Shown one piece after another: positions 1 to 5,347 of a stretch of DNA of 5,347 nt. Both the position numbers and the translations under genes were made by a program. The stretch lies in the IMG/VR virus record IMGVR_UViG_2698536307_000017; one strand, 5' to 3'. This DNA is from a virus. Taxonomy: Duplodnaviria; Heunggongvirae; Uroviricota; Caudoviricetes. Every line of letters begins with the position of its first letter. Position 1 is the first letter of the stretch. The notes below the pieces were generated by a model that saw nothing but the letters and a program-made list of their open reading frames with translations, was not told where the DNA came from and ran no database searches.

Positions 1-93
1 CCTGGCACGGCTGGGACGGAAGTCGCTGTCGTTCTCAAAATCGGTGGAGCTGCATGACAAAGTCATCGGGCATTATCTGAACATAAAACACTA

Positions 94-189
94 TCAATAA
101 GTTGGAGTCATTACCGCTGTGAAGATGATGGGCATACATGATGCGAACAACCAGAACGCAACAAACAAAAACTGCAATGCGTTTTTCAT
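94..189 (-). CDS. hypothetical small hydrophobic protein (31 aa)
   Basis: Below the ORF-track length cutoff; found by hand. Minus-strand ATG at 189..187 is preceded by a perfect AGGAGG (plus 194..199) with a 4-nt spacer; stop TGA at 96..94. Translation [31 protein letters not shown] has one hydrophobic segment and a signal/lipobox-like LFASC. No homolog recognised. Confidence 0.3.
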
Positions 190-727
190 TATTCCTCCTA
201 CAATCAATGTGCAATTACATTTAAACACACCTCAATTTGGCCGGACATATAAATATCTAAACCAGAAAAAATCACTTACATAGCGTTACAAACTCTTTAG
301 TCTAAAGGTTCATCGTAAAACATTCCCCATACTTATCAGTCCGTTCCGCGCCAGGTAGCTCATTGCCTTATCTGGCAACCTGTAATCAGGTTTCCGCTTT
401 TTCAGTTGGCTGGTCGTTTAACCGACATAGTTAATCCATTAATCTAGTTGCCGGATGTTGGTGGATTTTCGCGTTTTAGTTGTTCATAAAAGTGCACAGC
501 TTTAACCAGTTCTTCTGATGTAACTGGGACTGGTGAGGCAGTGAATAAGGCCTGAATTTGATAGTTCGGCCTGTCGTTACAATCCTCTTTTTTCGGTACA
601 TATTTCCAGTCACCAGACCACTACTTCCCCTGAAAGTCCGTAACGCCTTTTTTCACGTAGCGATATCGCCATGCCACTGGTTTTGCTTGCCCCGCCGTTT
701 CATGCCCTTCCTGATAATTAATCTCGC

Positions 728-1079
728 TCATTCATCGCCCCACTCATCACAATATGCTTCGACCGGAGTTTTTCCCGCTTCATAGTCATCACGCTAGGAT
801 TCGACATCAGCAGCACTTCCACCGCGTAACTCACCATAGTCCATTAATAGTTCATCCCGCTCTTCAAAACTGATGTTATATTTAGCTGAACAAAAATCAG
901 CCACTTTGTTCTTCCTCATCGTCTTTTATTTCGTGGTATGAGTAATTGCAGTAGTTAAAGAAAATTTCTTATGCTCCGTCATGAATTTCCTCAGGTGTTG
1001 CGTCATCGTCCACTTCGAATACATCCTCAAAATCTCCACCAGCTATTCCCGTTTCAATAATAATTTTGAACTTTCGCAT
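728..1079 (-). pseudogene. decayed remnant of an acidic protein-coding gene (fragments in two frames with internal stops)
   Basis: Hand translation of the minus strand. Frame A: ATG 1079..1077, MRKFKIIIETGIAGGDFEDVFEVDDDATPEEIHDGA, TAA at 971..969, then sense codons EIFFNYCNYSYHEIKDDEEEQSG to TGA 899..897. Frame B: MRKNKVADFCSAKYNISFEERDELLMDYGELRGGSAADVES from ATG 919..917, TAG at 796..794, then RDDYEAGKTPVEAYCDEWGDE to TGA 730..728. The same acidic composition in both frames suggests one ancestral ORF broken by a frameshift and nonsense codons. Confidence 0.3.
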
Positions 1080-1086
1080 TTCACTA

Positions 1087-1102
1087 CCGCCCTTTCGGGC
1101 GG
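1087..1102 (-). promoter_or_regulatory. GC-rich stem-loop (CCGCCC-GAAA-GGGCGG on the minus strand) between an AGGAGG and the ATG at 1079
   Basis: Perfect 6-bp G/C stem with a 4-nt loop. On the minus strand the order is AGGAGG (1108..1103), hairpin (1102..1087), 7 nt, ATG (1079..1077). No U-tract follows on either strand, so it is not a canonical intrinsic terminator. Confidence 0.3.
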
Positions 1103-1211
1103 CCTCCTGATGTTCTGAGGGTGCAGAAATCCATCCGGTTAAGGATTAAATTTTATTTACAGAACTGAATTTAATTATTCAGATATACGTATCTGTAGCC
1201 TTACGAATCTA

Positions 1212-1265
1212 CTCACTGGATGCCTCTTTCATAAAAATAATCCAGTGGGTTTTATCGTTTTTTCC
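1212..1265 (+). terminator. putative plus-strand intrinsic terminator-like hairpin with T-tract
   Basis: Stem 1212..1221 (ctcactggat) pairs with 1240..1249 (atccagtggg), 10 bp with one G-U pair, 18-nt loop. It is followed by ttttatcgttttttcc (1250..1265). The large loop lowers confidence. Confidence 0.3.
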
Positions 1266-1303
1266 CTGTTCGTTGACAGATAACAGGTTTTCTGTCTGTC
1301 AGT

Positions 1304-1316
1304 GCCAGAATCTGGC
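1304..1316. repeat. 13-bp perfect palindrome GCCAGAATCTGGC, with nearby short inverted repeats (TGACAG at 1274..1279 / CTGTCA at 1296..1301)
   Basis: Read directly from the sequence; lies immediately 3' of the methyltransferase-like ORF stop. Function unknown; could be a protein-binding site or part of a terminator. Confidence 0.6.
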
Positions 1317-1341
1317 TTACCGGTATTTGCGTTTCATTCCA

Positions 1342-1698
1342 TTAAAAAATCAGAACGCCGTGCGGCCTCAACACCCGAAAGGCTTCTTTAAATCTCTGTC
1401 GCGAATCATCACGCCAGGCATCTTTATTCAGCCGTCCATATTTCTTTCCCATCCAGGCGTTATCACCAACACTCTCAAGATGCGGAGGGTCTAATACAAC
1501 CATCGAAAAAGATGCGTCTGCAAATGATAATGCACGAAAATCTGCGATAATGTCAGGGCTGATAATCAAGCGTCTCCCATTGCGTAATGTGTATCCTTCT
1601 TTTCTGATATCGCTGAATATCGCCCGTTCGTCAGACTTATCGAACCAGAACATGCGGCTGCCACAGCACATATCAAGAATGGTTGCCGGTGCACTCAC
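1342..1698 (-). CDS. class I SAM-dependent methyltransferase-like protein (amino-methyltransferase type, DPPH motif), short and probably truncated or decayed
   Basis: 118-aa ORF from the track. Motif I-like ILDMCCGSR (aa 7-15), acidic end of strand 2 (AIFSD), motif IV tetrapeptide D-P-P-H (aa 70-73, nt 1480..1491), then FRVLRPHGVLIF. Start is GTG at 1698..1696, overlapping the upstream ORF stop as GTGA. It is too short for a complete methyltransferase fold; after TAA 1344..1342 the frame stays open for 29 more sense codons to TAA 1254..1252. Confidence 0.5.
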   Translation of the reverse strand: MSAPATILDMCCGSRMFWFDKSDERAIFSDIRKEGYTLRNGRRLIISPDIIADFRALSFADASFSMVVLDPPHLESVGDNAWMGKKYGRLNKDAWRDDSRQRFKEAFRVLRPHGVLIF

Positions 1699-1961
1699 TG
1701 CGCCACGTCCTGAAAATTACCCTGATAGAAAGCCAGTATGCGCTGCATAACTTCGCTCTTCCGGCACTCGCGACAGATTATGTTTAGGCGACTGTCGTAG
1801 CGACGTATTTCTCCGTCAGGTGATGACCAGATAAGGTCCGGATCAACCACAGCAGGTTTCTTCACCTTTGCCCTCGAGAGTTTTTTGCGGGCGTTTTGCC
1901 AGTCCTTACGCGCCTGTTCAGAGGGGAATAACCCGTATCCGGAGCTTAAGTTGCACGCCAT
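1695..1961 (-). CDS. hypothetical protein (88 aa from ATG 1961, or 56 aa from GTG 1865 with a GAGGG Shine-Dalgarno)
   Basis: ORF-track ORF whose stop overlaps the methyltransferase GTG start by 4 nt. ATG 1961 has no Shine-Dalgarno; the in-frame GTG at 1865..1863 has GAGGG 5 nt upstream. No motif recognised beyond a single CxxC (CRECRK). It may instead be the frameshifted N-terminal part of the methyltransferase. Confidence 0.3.
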   Translation of the reverse strand: MACNLSSGYGLFPSEQARKDWQNARKKLSRAKVKKPAVVDPDLIWSSPDGEIRRYDSRLNIICRECRKSEVMQRILAFYQGNFQDVAQ

Positions 1962-2019
1962 TGGGTGGGTTAAGCATAAATGTATTCCTGGTGCTAAATG
2001 GCCCGAAATTCAGGCAGAG

Positions 2020-3918
2020 ATGCGCATCTGGAAAAAACGTCGCGAAGGTGAACGCAAGGAAACCGGAAAATACACGTCTGTTGTTGATCTCGCCCGCGCC
2101 AGAGCCAATCAACAGTACACTGAAAATTCAACAGGAAAAATCAGCCCGGTCATTGCTGCCATTCATCGCGAATACAAGCAGACATGGAAAACACTGGATG
2201 ACGAACTGGCCTACGCTCTCTGGCCTAGTGATGTGGATGCCGGAAACATTGACGGCAGCATCCATCGCTGGGCAAAAAAAGAAGTTATCGACAACGACCG
2301 CGAAGACTGGAAGCGTATCTCGGCATCAATGCGCAAACAGCCTGATGCCCTTCGCTACGACCGCCAAACTATTTTTGGCCTTGTCCGTGAGCGTCCGATC
2401 GACATTCACAAAGATCCCGTAGCACTGAACAAATATATCTGCGAATACCTGACGACAAAGGGCGTGTTTGAGAATGAAGAAACAGACCTGGGCACTGTTG
2501 ATGTTCTCCAGTCATCAGAAACACAAACTGATGCAGTGGAAACTGAGGTATCTGATATCCCAAAAAATGAAACCGCGCCGGAAGCTGAACCATCTGTAGA
2601 GCGTGAGGGGCCGTTCTATTTCCTCTTCGCAGATAAGGACGGAGAAAAATACGGTCGCGCAAACAAACTCTCTGGTCTGGATAAGGCACTGGCTGCTGGC
2701 GCCACTGAAATCACAAAAGAAGAATATTTTGCCCGAAAAAATGGCACATACACGGGCTTACCGCAAAATGTAGATACCGCTGAAGATTCAGAACAACCAG
2801 AGCCGATAAAAGTTACCGCTGACGAAGTAAACAAAATTATGCAGGCAGCCAATATCAGCCAGCCTGACGCCGATAAGTTGCTTGCTGCATCACGTGGTGA
2901 ATTTGTTGAAGGGATTAGTGACCCGAATGATCCGAAATGGGTTAAGGGGCTCCAGACCCGCGATTCTGTGAACCAGAACCAGCATGAATCGGAACGGAAC
3001 TACCAAAAAGCGGAACAAAACAGTCCAAATGCGTTACAAAACGAGCCAGAAACGAAACAGCCTGAACCAGTAGCGCAACAGGAAGTGGAAAAAGTCTGCA
3101 CCGCCTGCGGTCAGACCGGCGGCGGCAACTGCCCTGATTGTGGCGCGGTGATGGGCGACGCAACATACCAAGAAACATTCGATGAAGAGTATCAGGTTGA
3201 AGTTCAGGAAGATGATCCGGAGGAAATGGAAGGCGCTGAACATCCACACAAGGAGAACACTGGCGGCAATCAGCATCACAATAGCGATAATGAAACTGGC
3301 GAGACGGCAGATCACCCAATTAAGGTGAACGGTCATCACGAAATCACATCCACCAGCAGGACGTGTGACCATCTAATGATCGACCTTGAAACCATGGGAA
3401 AAAATCCTGATGCCCCGATCATCTCAATAGGTGCAATATTTTTCGATCCGCAAACCGGAGATATGGGACCGGAATTTAGTAAGACTATCGATCTGGAAAC
3501 TGCTGGCGGAGTCATTGATCGGGACACCATTAAATGGTGGCTTAAGCAATCACGCGAAGCGCAATCTGCCATTATGACCGATGAAATCCCGTTAGATGAT
3601 GCACTGTTACAATTGCGAGAATTTATCGACGAAAACTCCGGTGAATTTTTTGTTCAGGTTTGGGGAAATGGAGCCAACTTCGACAACACGATTTTGCGCC
3701 GTTCATACGAACGGCAGGGGATCCCCTGCCCGTGGCGTTACTACAACGATCGCGATGTACGCACAATCGTTGAGCTGGGGAAAGCCATAGACTTCGATGC
3801 CAGAACGGCTATTCCATTCGAAGGTGAGCGCCATAATGCACTTGATGACGCCCGTTACCAGGCAAAATACGTTTCAGTTATCTGGCAAAAACTGATCCCG
3901 AGTCAGGCTGATTCTTAA
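2020..3918 (+). CDS. RecE-like (exonuclease VIII N-terminal-like) protein fused to a C-terminal DEDDh (DnaQ-like) 3'-5' exonuclease domain
   Basis: Long ORF from the track (677 codons from TTG 1885). In-frame start candidates are TTG 1885, TTG 1951 (GGAG 6 nt upstream) and ATG 2020; I prefer ATG 2020 because the translation upstream of it is Cys/Trp-rich and not protein-like. The C-terminal domain (nt 3376..3915) carries all three DEDDh motifs: Exo I D-x-E in MIDLETMG, Exo II GNGANFD (3664..3684), Exo III H-N-A-L-D-D (3832..3849). Upstream are acidic linkers and a Cys4 knuckle C-x2-C-x7-C-x2-C (3097..3141). The segment DADKLLAASRGEFVEGISDPNDPKWVKG and the Cys cluster match my recollection of the RecE N-terminal region; this is unverified. 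Confidence 0.85.
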   Translation: MRIWKKRREGERKETGKYTSVVDLARARANQQYTENSTGKISPVIAAIHREYKQTWKTLDDELAYALWPSDVDAGNIDGSIHRWAKKEVIDNDREDWKRISASMRKQPDALRYDRQTIFGLVRERPIDIHKDPVALNKYICEYLTTKGVFENEETDLGTVDVLQSSETQTDAVETEVSDIPKNETAPEAEPSVEREGPFYFLFADKDGEKYGRANKLSGLDKALAAGATEITKEEYFARKNGTYTGLPQNVDTAEDSEQPEPIKVTADEVNKIMQAANISQPDADKLLAASRGEFVEGISDPNDPKWVKGLQTRDSVNQNQHESERNYQKAEQNSPNALQNEPETKQPEPVAQQEVEKVCTACGQTGGGNCPDCGAVMGDATYQETFDEEYQVEVQEDDPEEMEGAEHPHKENTGGNQHHNSDNETGETADHPIKVNGHHEITSTSRTCDHLMIDLETMGKNPDAPIISIGAIFFDPQTGDMGPEFSKTIDLETAGGVIDRDTIKWWLKQSREAQSAIMTDEIPLDDALLQLREFIDENSGEFFVQVWGNGANFDNTILRRSYERQGIPCPWRYYNDRDVRTIVELGKAIDFDARTAIPFEGERHNALDDARYQAKYVSVIWQKLIPSQADS

Positions 3919-3929
3919 TGTTCAACTGT

Positions 3930-3961
3930 CGCCGGTTGTGACTGGTATTCTGCAACCGGCG
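3930..3961 (+). promoter_or_regulatory. stem-loop in the exonuclease-xis intergenic region
   Basis: cgccggttg (3930..3938) pairs with caaccggcg (3953..3961): 9-bp stem, 14-nt loop, 12 nt after the exonuclease stop and 30 nt before the xis ATG. No T-tract follows, so it is not a classical terminator. Confidence 0.3.
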
Positions 3962-3990
3962 CTCGTCTGATGTAAGAGATAAAGAAATCG

Positions 3991-4242
3991 ATGAGCGAAG
4001 TAATCATGATTGTCTCTCCCGGCAAATGGGTATCCGAAGAGCAGTTAATTGCGCTGAAAGGAATAAAAAAAGGTACGTTAAAAAAGGCCCGGGAAAAATC
4101 GTTTATGGAAGGAAGGGAATATAAGCATGTCGCTCATGACGGTATGCCATGGGATAACAGTCCATGCTTTTACAACCTGGAAGAAATTGATCGCTGGATT
4201 GAGCGCCAGGCATCAGCGAGACCAAGACGTCATCTTACTTGA
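3991..4242 (+). CDS. xis: excisionase-like protein (lambdoid prophage putative Xis, DUF1233-type)
   Basis: 83-aa ORF immediately upstream of and co-directional with the integrase. Small basic protein with the GREY...W...EEIDRWI pattern I associate with putative excisionases of Rac-type prophages. The assignment rests on position and pattern memory. Confidence 0.65.
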   Translation: MSEVIMIVSPGKWVSEEQLIALKGIKKGTLKKAREKSFMEGREYKHVAHDGMPWDNSPCFYNLEEIDRWIERQASARPRRHLT

Positions 4243-4276
4243 CTAAAAGCCACACTAACTAATGAGAGAAGTTGAA

Positions 4277-5335
4277 ATGAAATATCCGACAGGCGTGGAA
4301 AACCATGGAGGGAAATTACGTATCTGGTTTGTTTATAAAGACGTAAGAGTCAGGGAAAATCTGGGGGTTCCTGACACAGCAAAAAACAGGCGCGTTGCAG
4401 GTGAACTACGCTCCTCTGTTTGTTACGCAATAAAAACTGGTGTTTTCGACTATGCAAAACAGTTTCCCTCCTCACGCAATCTGGAAAAATTTGGTGAGGC
4501 CCGACAAGATTTAACCATAAAAGAACTGGCTGAAAAATTTCTGGCACTGAAAGAAACTGAAGTCGCCAAAACATCACTCAACACATACCGTGCCGTCATC
4601 AAAAATATCCTGAGCATAATCGGTGAAAAAAATCTTGCCTCATCGATTAATAAAGAAAAATTACTGGAGGTTCGTAAAGAGTTACTGACTGGATACCAGA
4701 TCCCCAAAAGTAACTATATTGTTACACAACCAGGGAGATCGGCTGTAACTGTAAATAATTACATGACAAATCTTAACGCCGTGTTCCAGTTTGGTGTTGA
4801 TAACGGTTACCTGGCAGATAATCCGTTTAAGGGGATCTCGCCATTAAAGGAATCAAGAACCATTCCGGATCCTCTTTCGCGGGAAGAATTTATCCGTCTT
4901 ATCGATGCGTGCAGAAATCAGCAAGCAAAAAATTTATGGTGTGTTTCTGTTTATACTGGAGTTCGCCCTGGTGAGCTGTGTGCACTTGGATGGGAGGACA
5001 TAGATCTGAAAAATGGAACAATGATGATCAGGAGAAATTTAGCAAAAGACCGTTTCACGGTACCAAAAACACAGGCGGGAACCAATCGGGTCATTCATCT
5101 TATTAAGCCAGCAATCGACGCTCTCCGGAGTCAGATGACATTAACGAGACTGAGCAAAGAGCATATCATTGATGTTCACCTCAGAGAGTATGGCAGAACA
5201 GAAAAACAAAAATGCACCTTTGTTTTGGAAGGTGCGAATAAGCAGGTCATTTCTTCCCAAGCTGACTCGCTGATTAAAATTTCTCGGATCTGGGCCGATT
5301 TTTTTCCCGCAAACACATCGAATCAGCCTATTTAG
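4277..5335 (+). CDS. int: phage integrase (tyrosine recombinase, lambda-type with N-terminal arm-binding domain), apparently C-terminally truncated
   Basis: N-terminus MKYPTGVENHGGKLRIWFVYKDVRVRE is an arm-type DNA-binding domain as in IntR-like integrases. Core box YTGVRPGELCALGWEDIDL holds the conserved Arg; the beta-hairpin Lys lies in VPKTQAGTNRVIHL. The ORF stops at TAG 5333..5335 with no HxxR, second His or catalytic Tyr. The track ORF starts at ATG 4262; ATG 4277 has a purine-rich GAGAGAAG upstream and matches the usual start of the family. Confidence 0.8.
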   Translation: MKYPTGVENHGGKLRIWFVYKDVRVRENLGVPDTAKNRRVAGELRSSVCYAIKTGVFDYAKQFPSSRNLEKFGEARQDLTIKELAEKFLALKETEVAKTSLNTYRAVIKNILSIIGEKNLASSINKEKLLEVRKELLTGYQIPKSNYIVTQPGRSAVTVNNYMTNLNAVFQFGVDNGYLADNPFKGISPLKESRTIPDPLSREEFIRLIDACRNQQAKNLWCVSVYTGVRPGELCALGWEDIDLKNGTMMIRRNLAKDRFTVPKTQAGTNRVIHLIKPAIDALRSQMTLTRLSKEHIIDVHLREYGRTEKQKCTFVLEGANKQVISSQADSLIKISRIWADFFPANTSNQPI

Positions 5336-5347
5336 GCTATTTTTTCC

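What the first reader, a model, noticed from the sequence alone, without database searches (positions are those of the whole stretch)
94..189. Unannotated 31-codon hydrophobic ORF with a perfect Shine-Dalgarno
AGGAGG-aata-ATG followed by [31 protein letters not shown]: a single hydrophobic helix or signal-like segment with a lipobox-like LFASC. This fits the profile of small membrane proteins and toxic peptides common in prophages. A possible second minus-strand ORF begins 27 nt downstream (ATG 66..64) and runs off the window.
Basis: seen in the sequence. Interest (0 to 1): 0.45.

Follow-up and report, generated by a model that had tools for sequence, protein, structure and literature searches.

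The report
IS1-truncated small prophage membrane-protein gene
The 31-codon ORF is the front 25 codons of an uncharacterised 59-codon small membrane-protein gene of an E. coli Qin-like prophage, cut by an IS1 insertion that supplies the last six codons and the stop, so here it is a broken gene remnant and not a gene in its own right.

Summary
It is a chimera. Window 1-115 is the right end of IS1, and the ORF's last six codons (VMTPTY) and TGA come from the IS1 terminal repeat. In loci without the IS1, the same start opens a 59-codon ORF ([59 protein letters not shown]) predicted to form two helices. IS1 inserted after codon 25, with a 9-bp target duplication (gctgtgaag). This exact junction occurs in 3 of 5426 complete E. 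coli genomes. The uninterrupted region occurs in about 1560.

The parent ORF is very probably a real gene. A second lineage, 41% identical and also 59 codons, sits in a decayed prophage at the Rac site. The divergence between the two lineages is strongly non-neutral in this frame (0 of 100,000 neutral simulations reach the observed protein similarity). Both lineages lie just upstream of hok. RefSeq's PGAP leaves it unannotated in every genome row examined. It matches no Pfam, NCBIfam, PHROG or PADLOC family and is found only in Escherichia and Shigella.

In this window the prophage is badly decayed: the immunity region is deleted and the integrase is cut by ISKpn26. The fragment is most likely inert. 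This is an ordinary IS disruption of a mildly interesting orphan small-protein family.

The parts
1..115 (+). Right end of an IS1 element: the 3' end of insB (stop TAA at 98-100) and the terminal inverted repeat, ending ...GTTGGAGTCATTACC at 115.
   Evidence: It is 100% identical to thousands of annotated IS1A/IS1B copies. In L003, which is identical to window 1-5226, the element is exactly 768 bp with an annotated IS1A transposase.
116..124 (.). Right-hand copy of the 9-bp target-site duplication GCTGTGAAG made by the IS1 insertion.
   Evidence: L003 has gctgtgaag|IS1|gctgtgaag. Uninterrupted loci carry a single copy (L001 6001-6009). A duplication of 8 or 9 bp is typical of IS1 (PMC12428005).
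94..189 (-). The reported 31-codon ORF plus stop. It is a chimeric reading frame spanning the prophage/IS1 junction.
116..189 (-). The native part: codons 1-24 and the first two bases of codon 25 of the 59-codon prophage gene ([25 protein letters not shown]), covering helix 1.
   Evidence: It is identical to the start of the 59-codon ORF in L001 and about 76 other loci.
94..115 (-). The IS1-derived tail: third base of codon 25, codons VMTPTY, and TGA. It is the reverse complement of the IS1 terminal repeat and overlaps the last insB codons on the other strand.
   Evidence: The same bases occur in every IS1 right end.
194..199 (-). Shine-Dalgarno AGGAGG, 4 nt before the ATG. It is native to the 59-codon gene. 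The allele AGGGGG is at least as common elsewhere.
   Evidence: AGGGGG in 44 loci, AGGAGG in 32.
190..309 (-). Intergenic leader between the upstream pseudogene and the small ORF. No promoter-like site was found in it.

Best explanation
The feature is a gene remnant created by transposition.

The parent gene: a Qin-like lambdoid prophage of E. coli carries, in its early-right ('nin') region and in the same orientation as the replication, nin-region and Q genes, a 59-codon gene for a small protein predicted to form two hydrophobic helices (about residues 4-25 and 33-55). The gene ends about 105 nt upstream of the 5' end of the hok/sok toxin-antitoxin transcript.

The disruption: IS1 inserted after codon 25 and duplicated 9 bp (GCTGTGAAG). 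Reading from the intact SD and ATG, the frame runs into the IS1 terminal repeat, which adds VMTPTY and a TGA. This gives the 31-codon ORF. The other 34 codons lie on the far side of the IS1, outside the window.

What is shown: the junction, the duplication, the 59-codon parent, its rarity as a disrupted allele, and protein-level constraint between two lineages of the family.

What is inferred: (1) the parent is an inner-membrane helical hairpin, with conserved residues on one face of each helix (W13, S17, P20/I21, T24; G39xxxA43xxxG47 with N42), which suggests helix packing or oligomerisation; (2) it is an accessory phage gene expressed by read-through from pR; (3) in this window the fragment is inert or at most weakly expressed, because it lacks helix 2 and because a 4.6-kb deletion has removed pR and the whole immunity region.
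For: IS1 identity: window 1-115 is 100% identical to annotated IS1 copies. In L003, which is identical to window 1-5226, the element is 768 bp and flanked by gctgtgaag on both sides.

The parent ORF: uninterrupted loci have a 59-codon ORF from the same ATG. Of 78 usable viral contigs chosen by a flanking motif and not by the ORF itself, 76 keep all 59 codons. The uninterrupted region is in 1568 of 5426 complete genomes. The exact IS1 junction is in only 3. The 31-aa peptide is absent from a collection of 15 billion proteins, while the 59-aa protein is seen on at least 1000 contigs.

The parent is coding: a second lineage (P0044/P0037) is 41% identical and also 59 aa. The two align without gaps at 58% nucleotide identity. 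Identity by codon position is 58/69/47%, with pN 0.35 against pS 0.70. In 100,000 neutral simulations with the same 74 substitutions, 2.7% keep the frame open, 0.27% reach the observed amino-acid identity and none reach the observed BLOSUM62 score. The opposite-strand ORF that phage records annotate has two stops in lineage 2.

Structure: AlphaFold2 on 8 sequences gives helices 2-26 and 28-58 with mean pLDDT 74. Hydropathy shows two peaks.

Context: an Rfam sok hit and a Pfam HOK_GEF gene lie directly downstream. A hok 3' remnant lies 55 nt after the lineage-2 ORF.

Decay of this prophage copy: a deletion junction at 1935-1944 and an ISKpn26 end at 5227.
Against: Within lineage 1, all 8 polymorphic sites are nonsynonymous and none is synonymous. 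Frameshift and fusion alleles exist. Present-day constraint therefore looks weak, and the gene may be dispensable in cryptic prophages.

Only two lineages are known, both in Escherichia/Shigella, so the selection test rests on one deep comparison.

PGAP annotates the ORF in none of the roughly 45 genome rows or loci I examined.

There is no expression, localisation or phenotype data. The AlphaFold model rests on a shallow alignment and has moderate confidence.

Nothing shows that the truncated ORF is untranslated.
Confidence: 0.88

Rival explanations
1. The 31-codon ORF is itself a functional small membrane protein or toxic peptide gene.
For: The strong SD, the ATG and one complete hydrophobic helix are intact. 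A single-helix peptide of about 30 residues is a plausible membrane-active molecule.
Against: The last six codons and the stop come from the IS1 terminal repeat. The allele is in 3 of 5426 genomes, against about 1560 with the 59-codon form. The peptide is absent from the protein collection. It lacks helix 2, which carries most of the family's conserved residues. The pR/immunity region that would drive it is deleted, and no promoter-like site lies upstream.
Confidence: 0.04
2. The parent protein is a lipoprotein precursor and not a two-helix hairpin. Residues 1-17 would be a signal peptide cut by signal peptidase II at a lipobox (LFAS|C or IVIS|C). This would leave a lipidated 42-residue protein with one C-terminal transmembrane helix. 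The truncated allele would then give a 14-residue lipopeptide.
For: S17-C18 is invariant across two lineages that are only 41% identical. Both lineages have K/R at positions 2-3, a 12-13 residue hydrophobic stretch and Cys at position 18. By my reading, both fit the classical PROSITE lipobox pattern, which I recalled from memory ({DERK}(6)-[LIVMFWSTAG](2)-[LIVMFYSTAGCQ]-[AGS]-C, Cys between positions 15 and 35, K/R in the first 7). The topology is the same as in the hairpin model.
Against: The hydrophobic run continues for 7 residues past the Cys (MPIIFTA / VPIILTS), which gives a 22-residue segment typical of a transmembrane helix. The conserved residues W13, S17, P20/I21 and T24 fall on one helical face, as expected for a packed helix. 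AlphaFold models one continuous helix over residues 2-26. No lipoprotein predictor could be run.
Confidence: 0.2
3. The parent 59-codon ORF is a chance open frame in AT-rich non-coding DNA, and nothing here encodes a protein.
For: PGAP does not annotate it in any genome row or locus examined. All within-lineage polymorphisms are nonsynonymous. It is an orphan with no family match. T-rich DNA readily yields hydrophobic ORFs. An SD-ATG-ORF of at least 59 codons appears in 1.9% of shuffles.
Against: The divergence between lineages is incompatible with neutrality in this frame (0 of 100,000 simulations). The length, start and stop are conserved without indels at 58% nucleotide identity. An SD-like purine run is kept in both lineages. 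76 of 78 loci are intact. There is no sign of a structured RNA (z = -0.31; no Rfam hit).
Confidence: 0.07
4. The parent ORF is a membrane toxin or a functional partner of the adjacent hok/sok module, for example a second killer peptide or a modulator of Hok.
For: It lies directly upstream of hok in two lineages that share little else. It is small, hydrophobic and carries a GxxxAxxxG-type motif.
Against: It lies outside the hok transcript as I read it by similarity to the plasmid R1 hok mRNA 5' end, recalled from memory. It survives where hok has decayed (lineage 2) or been cut by an ISNCY element (L001, L003). It shows no homology to toxin families, no antisense RNA family over it and no sequestering mRNA fold.
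Confidence: 0.1

Closest known systems
IS1 insertional gene disruption with read-through into the terminal inverted repeat
   Same: A 768-bp IS1 with its canonical ends and a 9-bp target duplication interrupts a coding sequence. The host frame continues a few codons into the IS end before a stop (IS1 properties from PMC12428005).
   Different: Nothing unusual. The locus does seem prone to insertion. An independent IS1 in the opposite orientation sits about 190 bp away in other strains. Other IS1 fusions of the family exist: P0039 in lineage 1 after codon 22, and P0050 in lineage 2.
Small hydrophobic accessory proteins of lambdoid prophages and small membrane proteins of E. coli found by ribosome profiling
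   Same: The parent is under 60 residues, hydrophobic, has a strong SD, sits in a prophage early region and is overlooked by standard annotation.
   Different: It belongs to no described family (no Pfam, NCBIfam, PHROG or PADLOC hit). It is absent from the Qin prophage of K-12 MG1655. I infer that this is why the K-12 small-protein screens would have missed it. It has two helices, not one.
Hok/Gef type I toxins (Pfam PF01848) with sok antisense RNA (Rfam RF01794)
   Same: Hok is the immediate downstream neighbour in both lineages. Both are small membrane peptides carried by prophages.
   Different: There is no sequence similarity. Hok is a single-helix peptide of about 50 residues, translated through mok and controlled by sok. 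The 59-codon ORF has its own strong SD, no detected antisense RNA and no special mRNA fold.
Bacterial lipoproteins (lipobox and signal peptidase II substrates)
   Same: An N-terminal K/R, a hydrophobic stretch and a conserved [AV]-S-C or I-S-C at positions 16-18 fit the classical lipobox pattern.
   Different: The hydrophobic segment continues beyond the Cys, and the mature part would be only 42 residues with its own transmembrane helix. Processing is untested.

Membership tests
IS1 insertion sequence | Terminal inverted repeat and insB 3' end with the IS1 sequence | tested here: met
   Window 1-115 is 100% identical to annotated IS1A/IS1B copies in 9176 records.
IS1 insertion sequence | Element of 768 bp carrying insA/insB, flanked by an 8-9 bp direct target duplication | tested here: met
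   Only the right end lies in the window. In L003 (identical over window 1-5226) the element spans 3348-4115, which is 768 bp. It has an annotated IS1A transposase with programmed frameshift and gctgtgaag on both sides. The reference properties come from PMC12428005.
Independent small-protein gene (the 31-codon ORF as a unit) | The same ORF boundaries are conserved in orthologous loci | tested here: not met
   The exact junction is in 3 of 5426 genomes. Orthologous loci carry 59 codons. The 31-aa sequence is not in the protein collection.
Protein-coding gene (the 59-codon parent) | Substitution pattern showing constraint on the encoded protein in this frame | tested here: met
   Between lineages: codon-position identity 58/69/47%, pN 0.35 against pS 0.70, and no indels. 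None of 100,000 neutral simulations reach the observed BLOSUM62 score. Within lineage 1 there is no such signal, with 8 of 8 polymorphisms nonsynonymous.
Protein-coding gene (the 59-codon parent) | Evidence of translation | not testable with these tools
   No paper in the library contains the peptide sequences. K-12 MG1655 lacks the locus in Qin.
Bacterial lipoprotein | Lipobox with an invariant Cys at a suitable distance from a positively charged N-terminus | tested here: met
   By inspection against the PROSITE-type pattern, recalled from memory: K2 ... L14-F15-A/V16-S17-C18 in lineage 1 and R2K3 ... I14-V15-I16-S17-C18 in lineage 2. No dedicated predictor was available.
Bacterial lipoprotein | Cleavage by signal peptidase II and lipid modification | not testable with these tools
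   This needs globomycin, palmitate labelling or a C18A mutant.
Type I toxin-antitoxin toxin (Hok, Ldr, Ibs, TisB and similar) | Homology to a known toxin family | tested here: not met
   No Pfam, NCBIfam, PHROG or PADLOC match at E <= 1 for the 59-aa protein or the lineage-2 protein. At that threshold the 31-aa chimera has only a chance-level NCBIfam match to phospholamban (E 0.1, 12.3 bits against a 72.85-bit cut-off). The neighbouring gene, not this one, is HOK_GEF.
Type I toxin-antitoxin toxin (Hok, Ldr, Ibs, TisB and similar) | Cognate antisense or overlapping regulatory RNA, or a translation-blocking mRNA fold | tested here: inconclusive
   No Rfam family overlaps the ORF. The fold energy is ordinary (z = -0.31). 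No promoter-like site was found on the opposite strand. An undescribed sRNA cannot be excluded.
Phage holin / pinholin | Location in the lysis cassette downstream of Q, and a match to a holin family | tested here: not met
   The ORF lies between the replication/nin genes and Q, upstream of hok. It matches no holin family.

The most novel reading that the evidence does not exclude
The 59-residue two-helix protein defines a previously uncharacterised small membrane-protein family. Its two lineages were found in 1568 and 1045 of 5426 complete E. coli genomes (overlap between the two sets was not checked). The family is persistently linked to hok/sok. In this reading it has a real membrane activity, such as a pore-like oligomer formed through its GxxxAxxxG face, a superinfection-exclusion factor, or a lipid-anchored modulator of Hok. 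The IS1-truncated 31-residue form could then be a naturally occurring helix-1-only variant.
Probability: 0.12. Interest if true: 0.5.

Novelty: new member of a known kind. Interest (0 to 1): 0.22.

Why it matters
For this window it matters little. The ORF should be read as an IS1-disrupted pseudogene fragment and not as a new small-protein gene. The case shows how IS ends create plausible-looking short ORFs with real ribosome-binding sites. The same thing happens at the other end of the window, where ISKpn26 supplies the tail of the integrase ORF.

The by-product is modestly useful. There is a conserved 59-codon membrane-protein gene with two lineages, found in 1568 and 1045 of 5426 complete E. 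coli genomes. PGAP left it unannotated in every genome row examined, some phage records annotate the wrong strand, and K-12's Qin prophage lacks it, so I infer the classic small-protein screens missed it. Its constant position next to hok gives a concrete and cheap hypothesis to test.

Tried and rejected
1. Family searches. The 59-aa protein, the lineage-2 protein and the 31-aa chimera gave nothing meaningful against NCBIfam, Pfam, PHROGs and PADLOC. The only output was a chance-level phospholamban match for the chimera.

2. Distant homologues. A word-indexed search of 5.8 billion proteins, an exhaustive HMMER search of 1.84 billion representatives, a profile search, tblastn against 50,697 phage records and a scan of GTDB species genomes found only Escherichia/Shigella sequences in two lineages. 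The long repetitive hits P0038 and P0043 were dismissed as compositional.

3. First diversity comparison. The loci had been chosen by similarity to the ORF, which biases ORF diversity downward. I set that comparison aside and repeated it on loci chosen by a flanking motif. Even then, mosaic downstream modules inflate flank diversity, so I use the result only as a weak indication.

4. Locus L089. It has indels that break the ORF and the SD. The indels are scattered single bases, several at homopolymers, across both ORF and flanks. I treated it as probable assembly error or a decayed copy, not as evidence either way.

5. Structured-RNA alternative. The fold energy is ordinary and no Rfam hit overlaps the ORF.

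6. Opposite-strand 54/85-codon ORF, annotated as 'hypothetical protein' or 'hornerin' in phage records. It has no SD and has two stops in lineage 2.

7. Promoter scan. Nothing upstream of the ORF exceeded chance.

8. Literature. Full-text searches for the peptide sequences of both lineages found no paper.

Full report
**1. Observation**

The reported ORF is real. On the minus strand, AGGAGG (199..194) is followed by AATA and ATG (189..187). The ORF then reads [31 protein letters not shown] and ends at TGA (96..94). The SD-ATG motif occurs once in the window against 0.18 expected, and 34 of 200 shuffles have at least one. With an ORF of at least 31 codons attached, it appears in 6.5% of 2000 dinucleotide shuffles. 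This is suggestive but not decisive.

**2. What the left end of the window is**

Bases 1-115 are the right end of IS1. They hold the last codons of insB (stop at 98-100) and the terminal inverted repeat, which ends ...GTTGGAGTCATTACC at 115. They are 100% identical to thousands of annotated IS1A/IS1B copies.

A complete genome, NZ_CP144928 (locus L003), is identical to window 1-5226. In it the IS1 is exactly 768 bp (L003 3348-4115). It carries an annotated frameshifting transposase and is flanked on both sides by GCTGTGAAG. This is a simple insertion with the 9-bp duplication typical of IS1 (PMC12428005). Window 116-124 is the right-hand copy of that duplication.

**3. The ORF is a chimera**

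Codon 25 straddles position 115|116. Everything after it, VMTPTY and the TGA, is the reverse complement of the IS1 end.

In loci without the insertion, the same SD and ATG open a 59-codon ORF: [59 protein letters not shown]. In L003 the remaining 34 codons sit on the other side of the IS1.

- The exact junction occurs in only 3 of 5426 complete E. coli genomes, all from the SCPM-O-B collection.
- The uninterrupted region occurs in 1568 genomes, all at least 95% identical.
- The 31-aa peptide is not in a 15-billion-protein collection. The 59-aa protein is there on at least 1000 contigs, named only 'hypothetical protein' or 'membrane protein'.

It is internal to IS1, so every IS1 copy with this sequence carries it.

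**4. Genomic context**

The DNA right of the IS1 is a Qin-like lambdoid prophage inserted next to rspB-rspA-ynfA.

The minus strand is the early-right direction: dicC (cro-like), ydaT, O, DUF977, a methyltransferase, two pseudogenes, then the small ORF, then hok/sok, and further on rem, ydfU and the antiterminator Q.

In phage vB_EcoS-640R1 the ORF stops about 105 nt before the 5' end of the hok transcript. I place that 5' end by similarity to the plasmid R1 hok mRNA, which I recalled from memory. The downstream region gives a full-length Rfam RF01794 hit, and the next gene is a Pfam HOK_GEF protein. In the Qin-type loci, including L003, the hok coding region is cut by an ISNCY element, but the leader survives.

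K-12 MG1655 lacks the whole segment in its Qin prophage.

This window's copy is heavily decayed.
- A junction with 10 bp of overlap at 1935-1944 marks a deletion of about 4.6 kb. It removes O, ydaT, dicC, dicA, ydfABC, dicF, dicB, ydfD and the 5' end of the exonuclease gene, and with them pR, pL and the repressor.
- Two upstream genes are pseudogenes.
- Bases 5227-5347 are the end of an IS5-family ISKpn26 element that truncates the integrase gene.
- No promoter-like site lies upstream of the small ORF.

**5. Is the 59-codon parent a real gene?**

Evidence against:
- PGAP leaves it unannotated in every genome row or locus examined.
- It matches no Pfam, NCBIfam, PHROG or PADLOC family.
- All searches find it only in Escherichia and Shigella.
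- Frameshift and fusion variants exist.
- In 78 usable viral contigs chosen by a flanking 34-mer, all 8 polymorphic sites are nonsynonymous.

Evidence for:
- 76 of those 78 contigs keep the full 59 codons.
- The ORF is less diverse than its immediate non-coding flanks. Heterozygosity is 0.011, against 0.021 and 0.036. Mosaic flanks make this only a weak indication.
- Most importantly, the exhaustive HMMER search uncovered a second lineage (P0037/P0044). It is 41% identical, also exactly 59 residues, and seen on at least 1000 contigs.

Lineage 2 lies in 1045 of 5426 complete genomes. It sits in a nearly erased prophage between ttcA and uspF, which I recognise as the Rac attachment region. The local features are an integrase fragment, a DUF1627 fragment and a frameshifted metal-ABC permease gene. 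A hok 3' remnant begins 55 nt after its stop codon (62 nt at 81% identity, E = 4e-12).

The two lineages align without gaps at 58% nucleotide identity.
- Identity by codon position is 58/69/47%.
- pN is 0.35 and pS is 0.70 (saturated).
- The contrast between pS and pN is largest in this frame.
- I simulated 74 random substitutions 100,000 times. Only 2.7% of runs kept the frame open, 0.27% reached 24 identical residues, and none reached the observed BLOSUM62 score of 145.
- A purine-rich SD-like run is kept in both lineages (AGGAGG or AGGGGG in lineage 1, AGGGA in lineage 2).
- The opposite-strand ORF that phage records annotate, once as 'hornerin', has two stops in lineage 2.
- The region shows no unusual RNA structure (z = -0.31).

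I conclude that the parent has been a protein-coding gene under purifying selection. Constraint is probably relaxed in present-day cryptic prophages.

**6. What the protein probably is**

Hydropathy gives two hydrophobic segments, about residues 4-25 and 33-55, joined by a short charged loop RYMEKVD. AlphaFold2 on an 8-sequence alignment gives helices 2-26 and 28-58, with mean pLDDT 74 and pTM 0.48.

Residues invariant between the lineages cluster on one face of each helix:
- Helix 1: W13, S17-C18, P20-I21-I22 and T24.
- Helix 2: F38-G39, N42-A43-L44 and E56-x-W58-R59 are invariant, and G47 is kept in all but one variant (P0046). This gives a G39xxxA43xxxG47 small-residue motif.

I infer an inner-membrane helical hairpin that packs or oligomerises through these faces. 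It would be expressed as an accessory gene of the early-right operon.

A lipoprotein reading is not excluded. Both lineages fit the classical lipobox pattern with Cys18. However, the hydrophobic run continues past the Cys.

Function is untested. Linkage to hok is the only functional lead.

**7. What the fragment in this window does**

It keeps the SD, the start and helix 1. It lacks helix 2, which carries most of the conserved residues. It also sits in a prophage copy without its early promoters.

The most likely state is an inert pseudogene fragment. A weakly expressed 31-residue membrane peptide cannot be excluded.

The locus seems prone to IS insertion.
- Other strains have an independent IS1 in the opposite orientation at window-equivalent 304-312.
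- P0039 (tail GDAANLLI, from the other IS1 end, after codon 22 of lineage 1) and P0050 (lineage 2) are further IS1 fusions.
- Several other fusion tails occur between codons 23 and 41.

**8. Verdict**

The feature is an ordinary IS1 gene disruption. Its parent is an uncharacterised and largely unannotated small membrane-protein family of E. coli prophages, which is of modest interest.

Noticed in passing
window 5227-5347: This is the terminal repeat and end of an IS5-family element (ISKpn26-like; GGAAGGTGCGAATAAG...) inserted in the integrase gene. The last ~36 codons and the stop of the 357-codon 'integrase' ORF (4262..5335) are therefore IS-derived. It is the same kind of chimeric tail as at the left end. 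The window is a prophage remnant bracketed by two IS elements.
   Followed up: partly
window 1935-1944: A deletion junction with 10 bp of overlap. Relative to Qin-like loci such as L001, about 4.6 kb is missing (O, ydaT, dicC, dicA, ydfA-C, dicF, dicB, ydfD and the exonuclease 5' end). A DUF977 gene fragment (1695-1946, minus strand) is fused head-to-head with an N-terminally truncated 3'-5' exoribonuclease-domain gene (1927-3918, plus strand). The long 677-codon ORF from TTG 1885 is an artefact of this junction.
   Followed up: partly
window 304-312 equivalent; L002 6198-6965: Other E. coli strains (for example 25-07338) carry an independent IS1 in the opposite orientation about 190 bp from this one, with the duplication TAAAGGTTC. 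Together with the IS1 fusion proteins P0039 and P0050 and several other fusion tails, this suggests an insertion-prone AT-rich spot.
   Followed up: partly
L093 7071-7250 (E. coli NC101), L091 829-1008: A second lineage of the 59-codon ORF (41% identical). It lies in a nearly erased prophage between ttcA and uspF in 1045 of 5426 complete genomes. PGAP left it unannotated in the genome rows examined. A hok 3' remnant and a frameshifted metal-ABC permease pseudogene follow it.
   Followed up: yes
L004 3068-3319 and L005 3068-3319 (phage records PV340562, ON470612; also ON470619): Deposited phage annotations call an 83-codon ORF on the opposite strand of the small gene, once named 'hornerin'. That frame has no SD and is not conserved in lineage 2, so it is probably a mis-annotation.
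   Followed up: yes
L003 2972-3143 (left of the IS1, outside the window); L005 2631-2956: A hok/sok module (Rfam RF01794; Pfam HOK_GEF in the phage) lies directly downstream of the small gene. In the Qin-type chromosomal loci the hok coding region is truncated by an ISNCY-family element. The Rfam 'sok' model matches on the hok-sense strand.
   Followed up: partly
window 310-731 and 897-1079, minus strand: These are two pseudogenes of the early-right operon: a frameshifted hypothetical gene and a DUF7167 gene with an internal stop. They are also pseudogenes in otherwise more complete Qin-like prophages.
   Followed up: no
It is a property of the IS1 sequence and not of this locus.
   Followed up: yes
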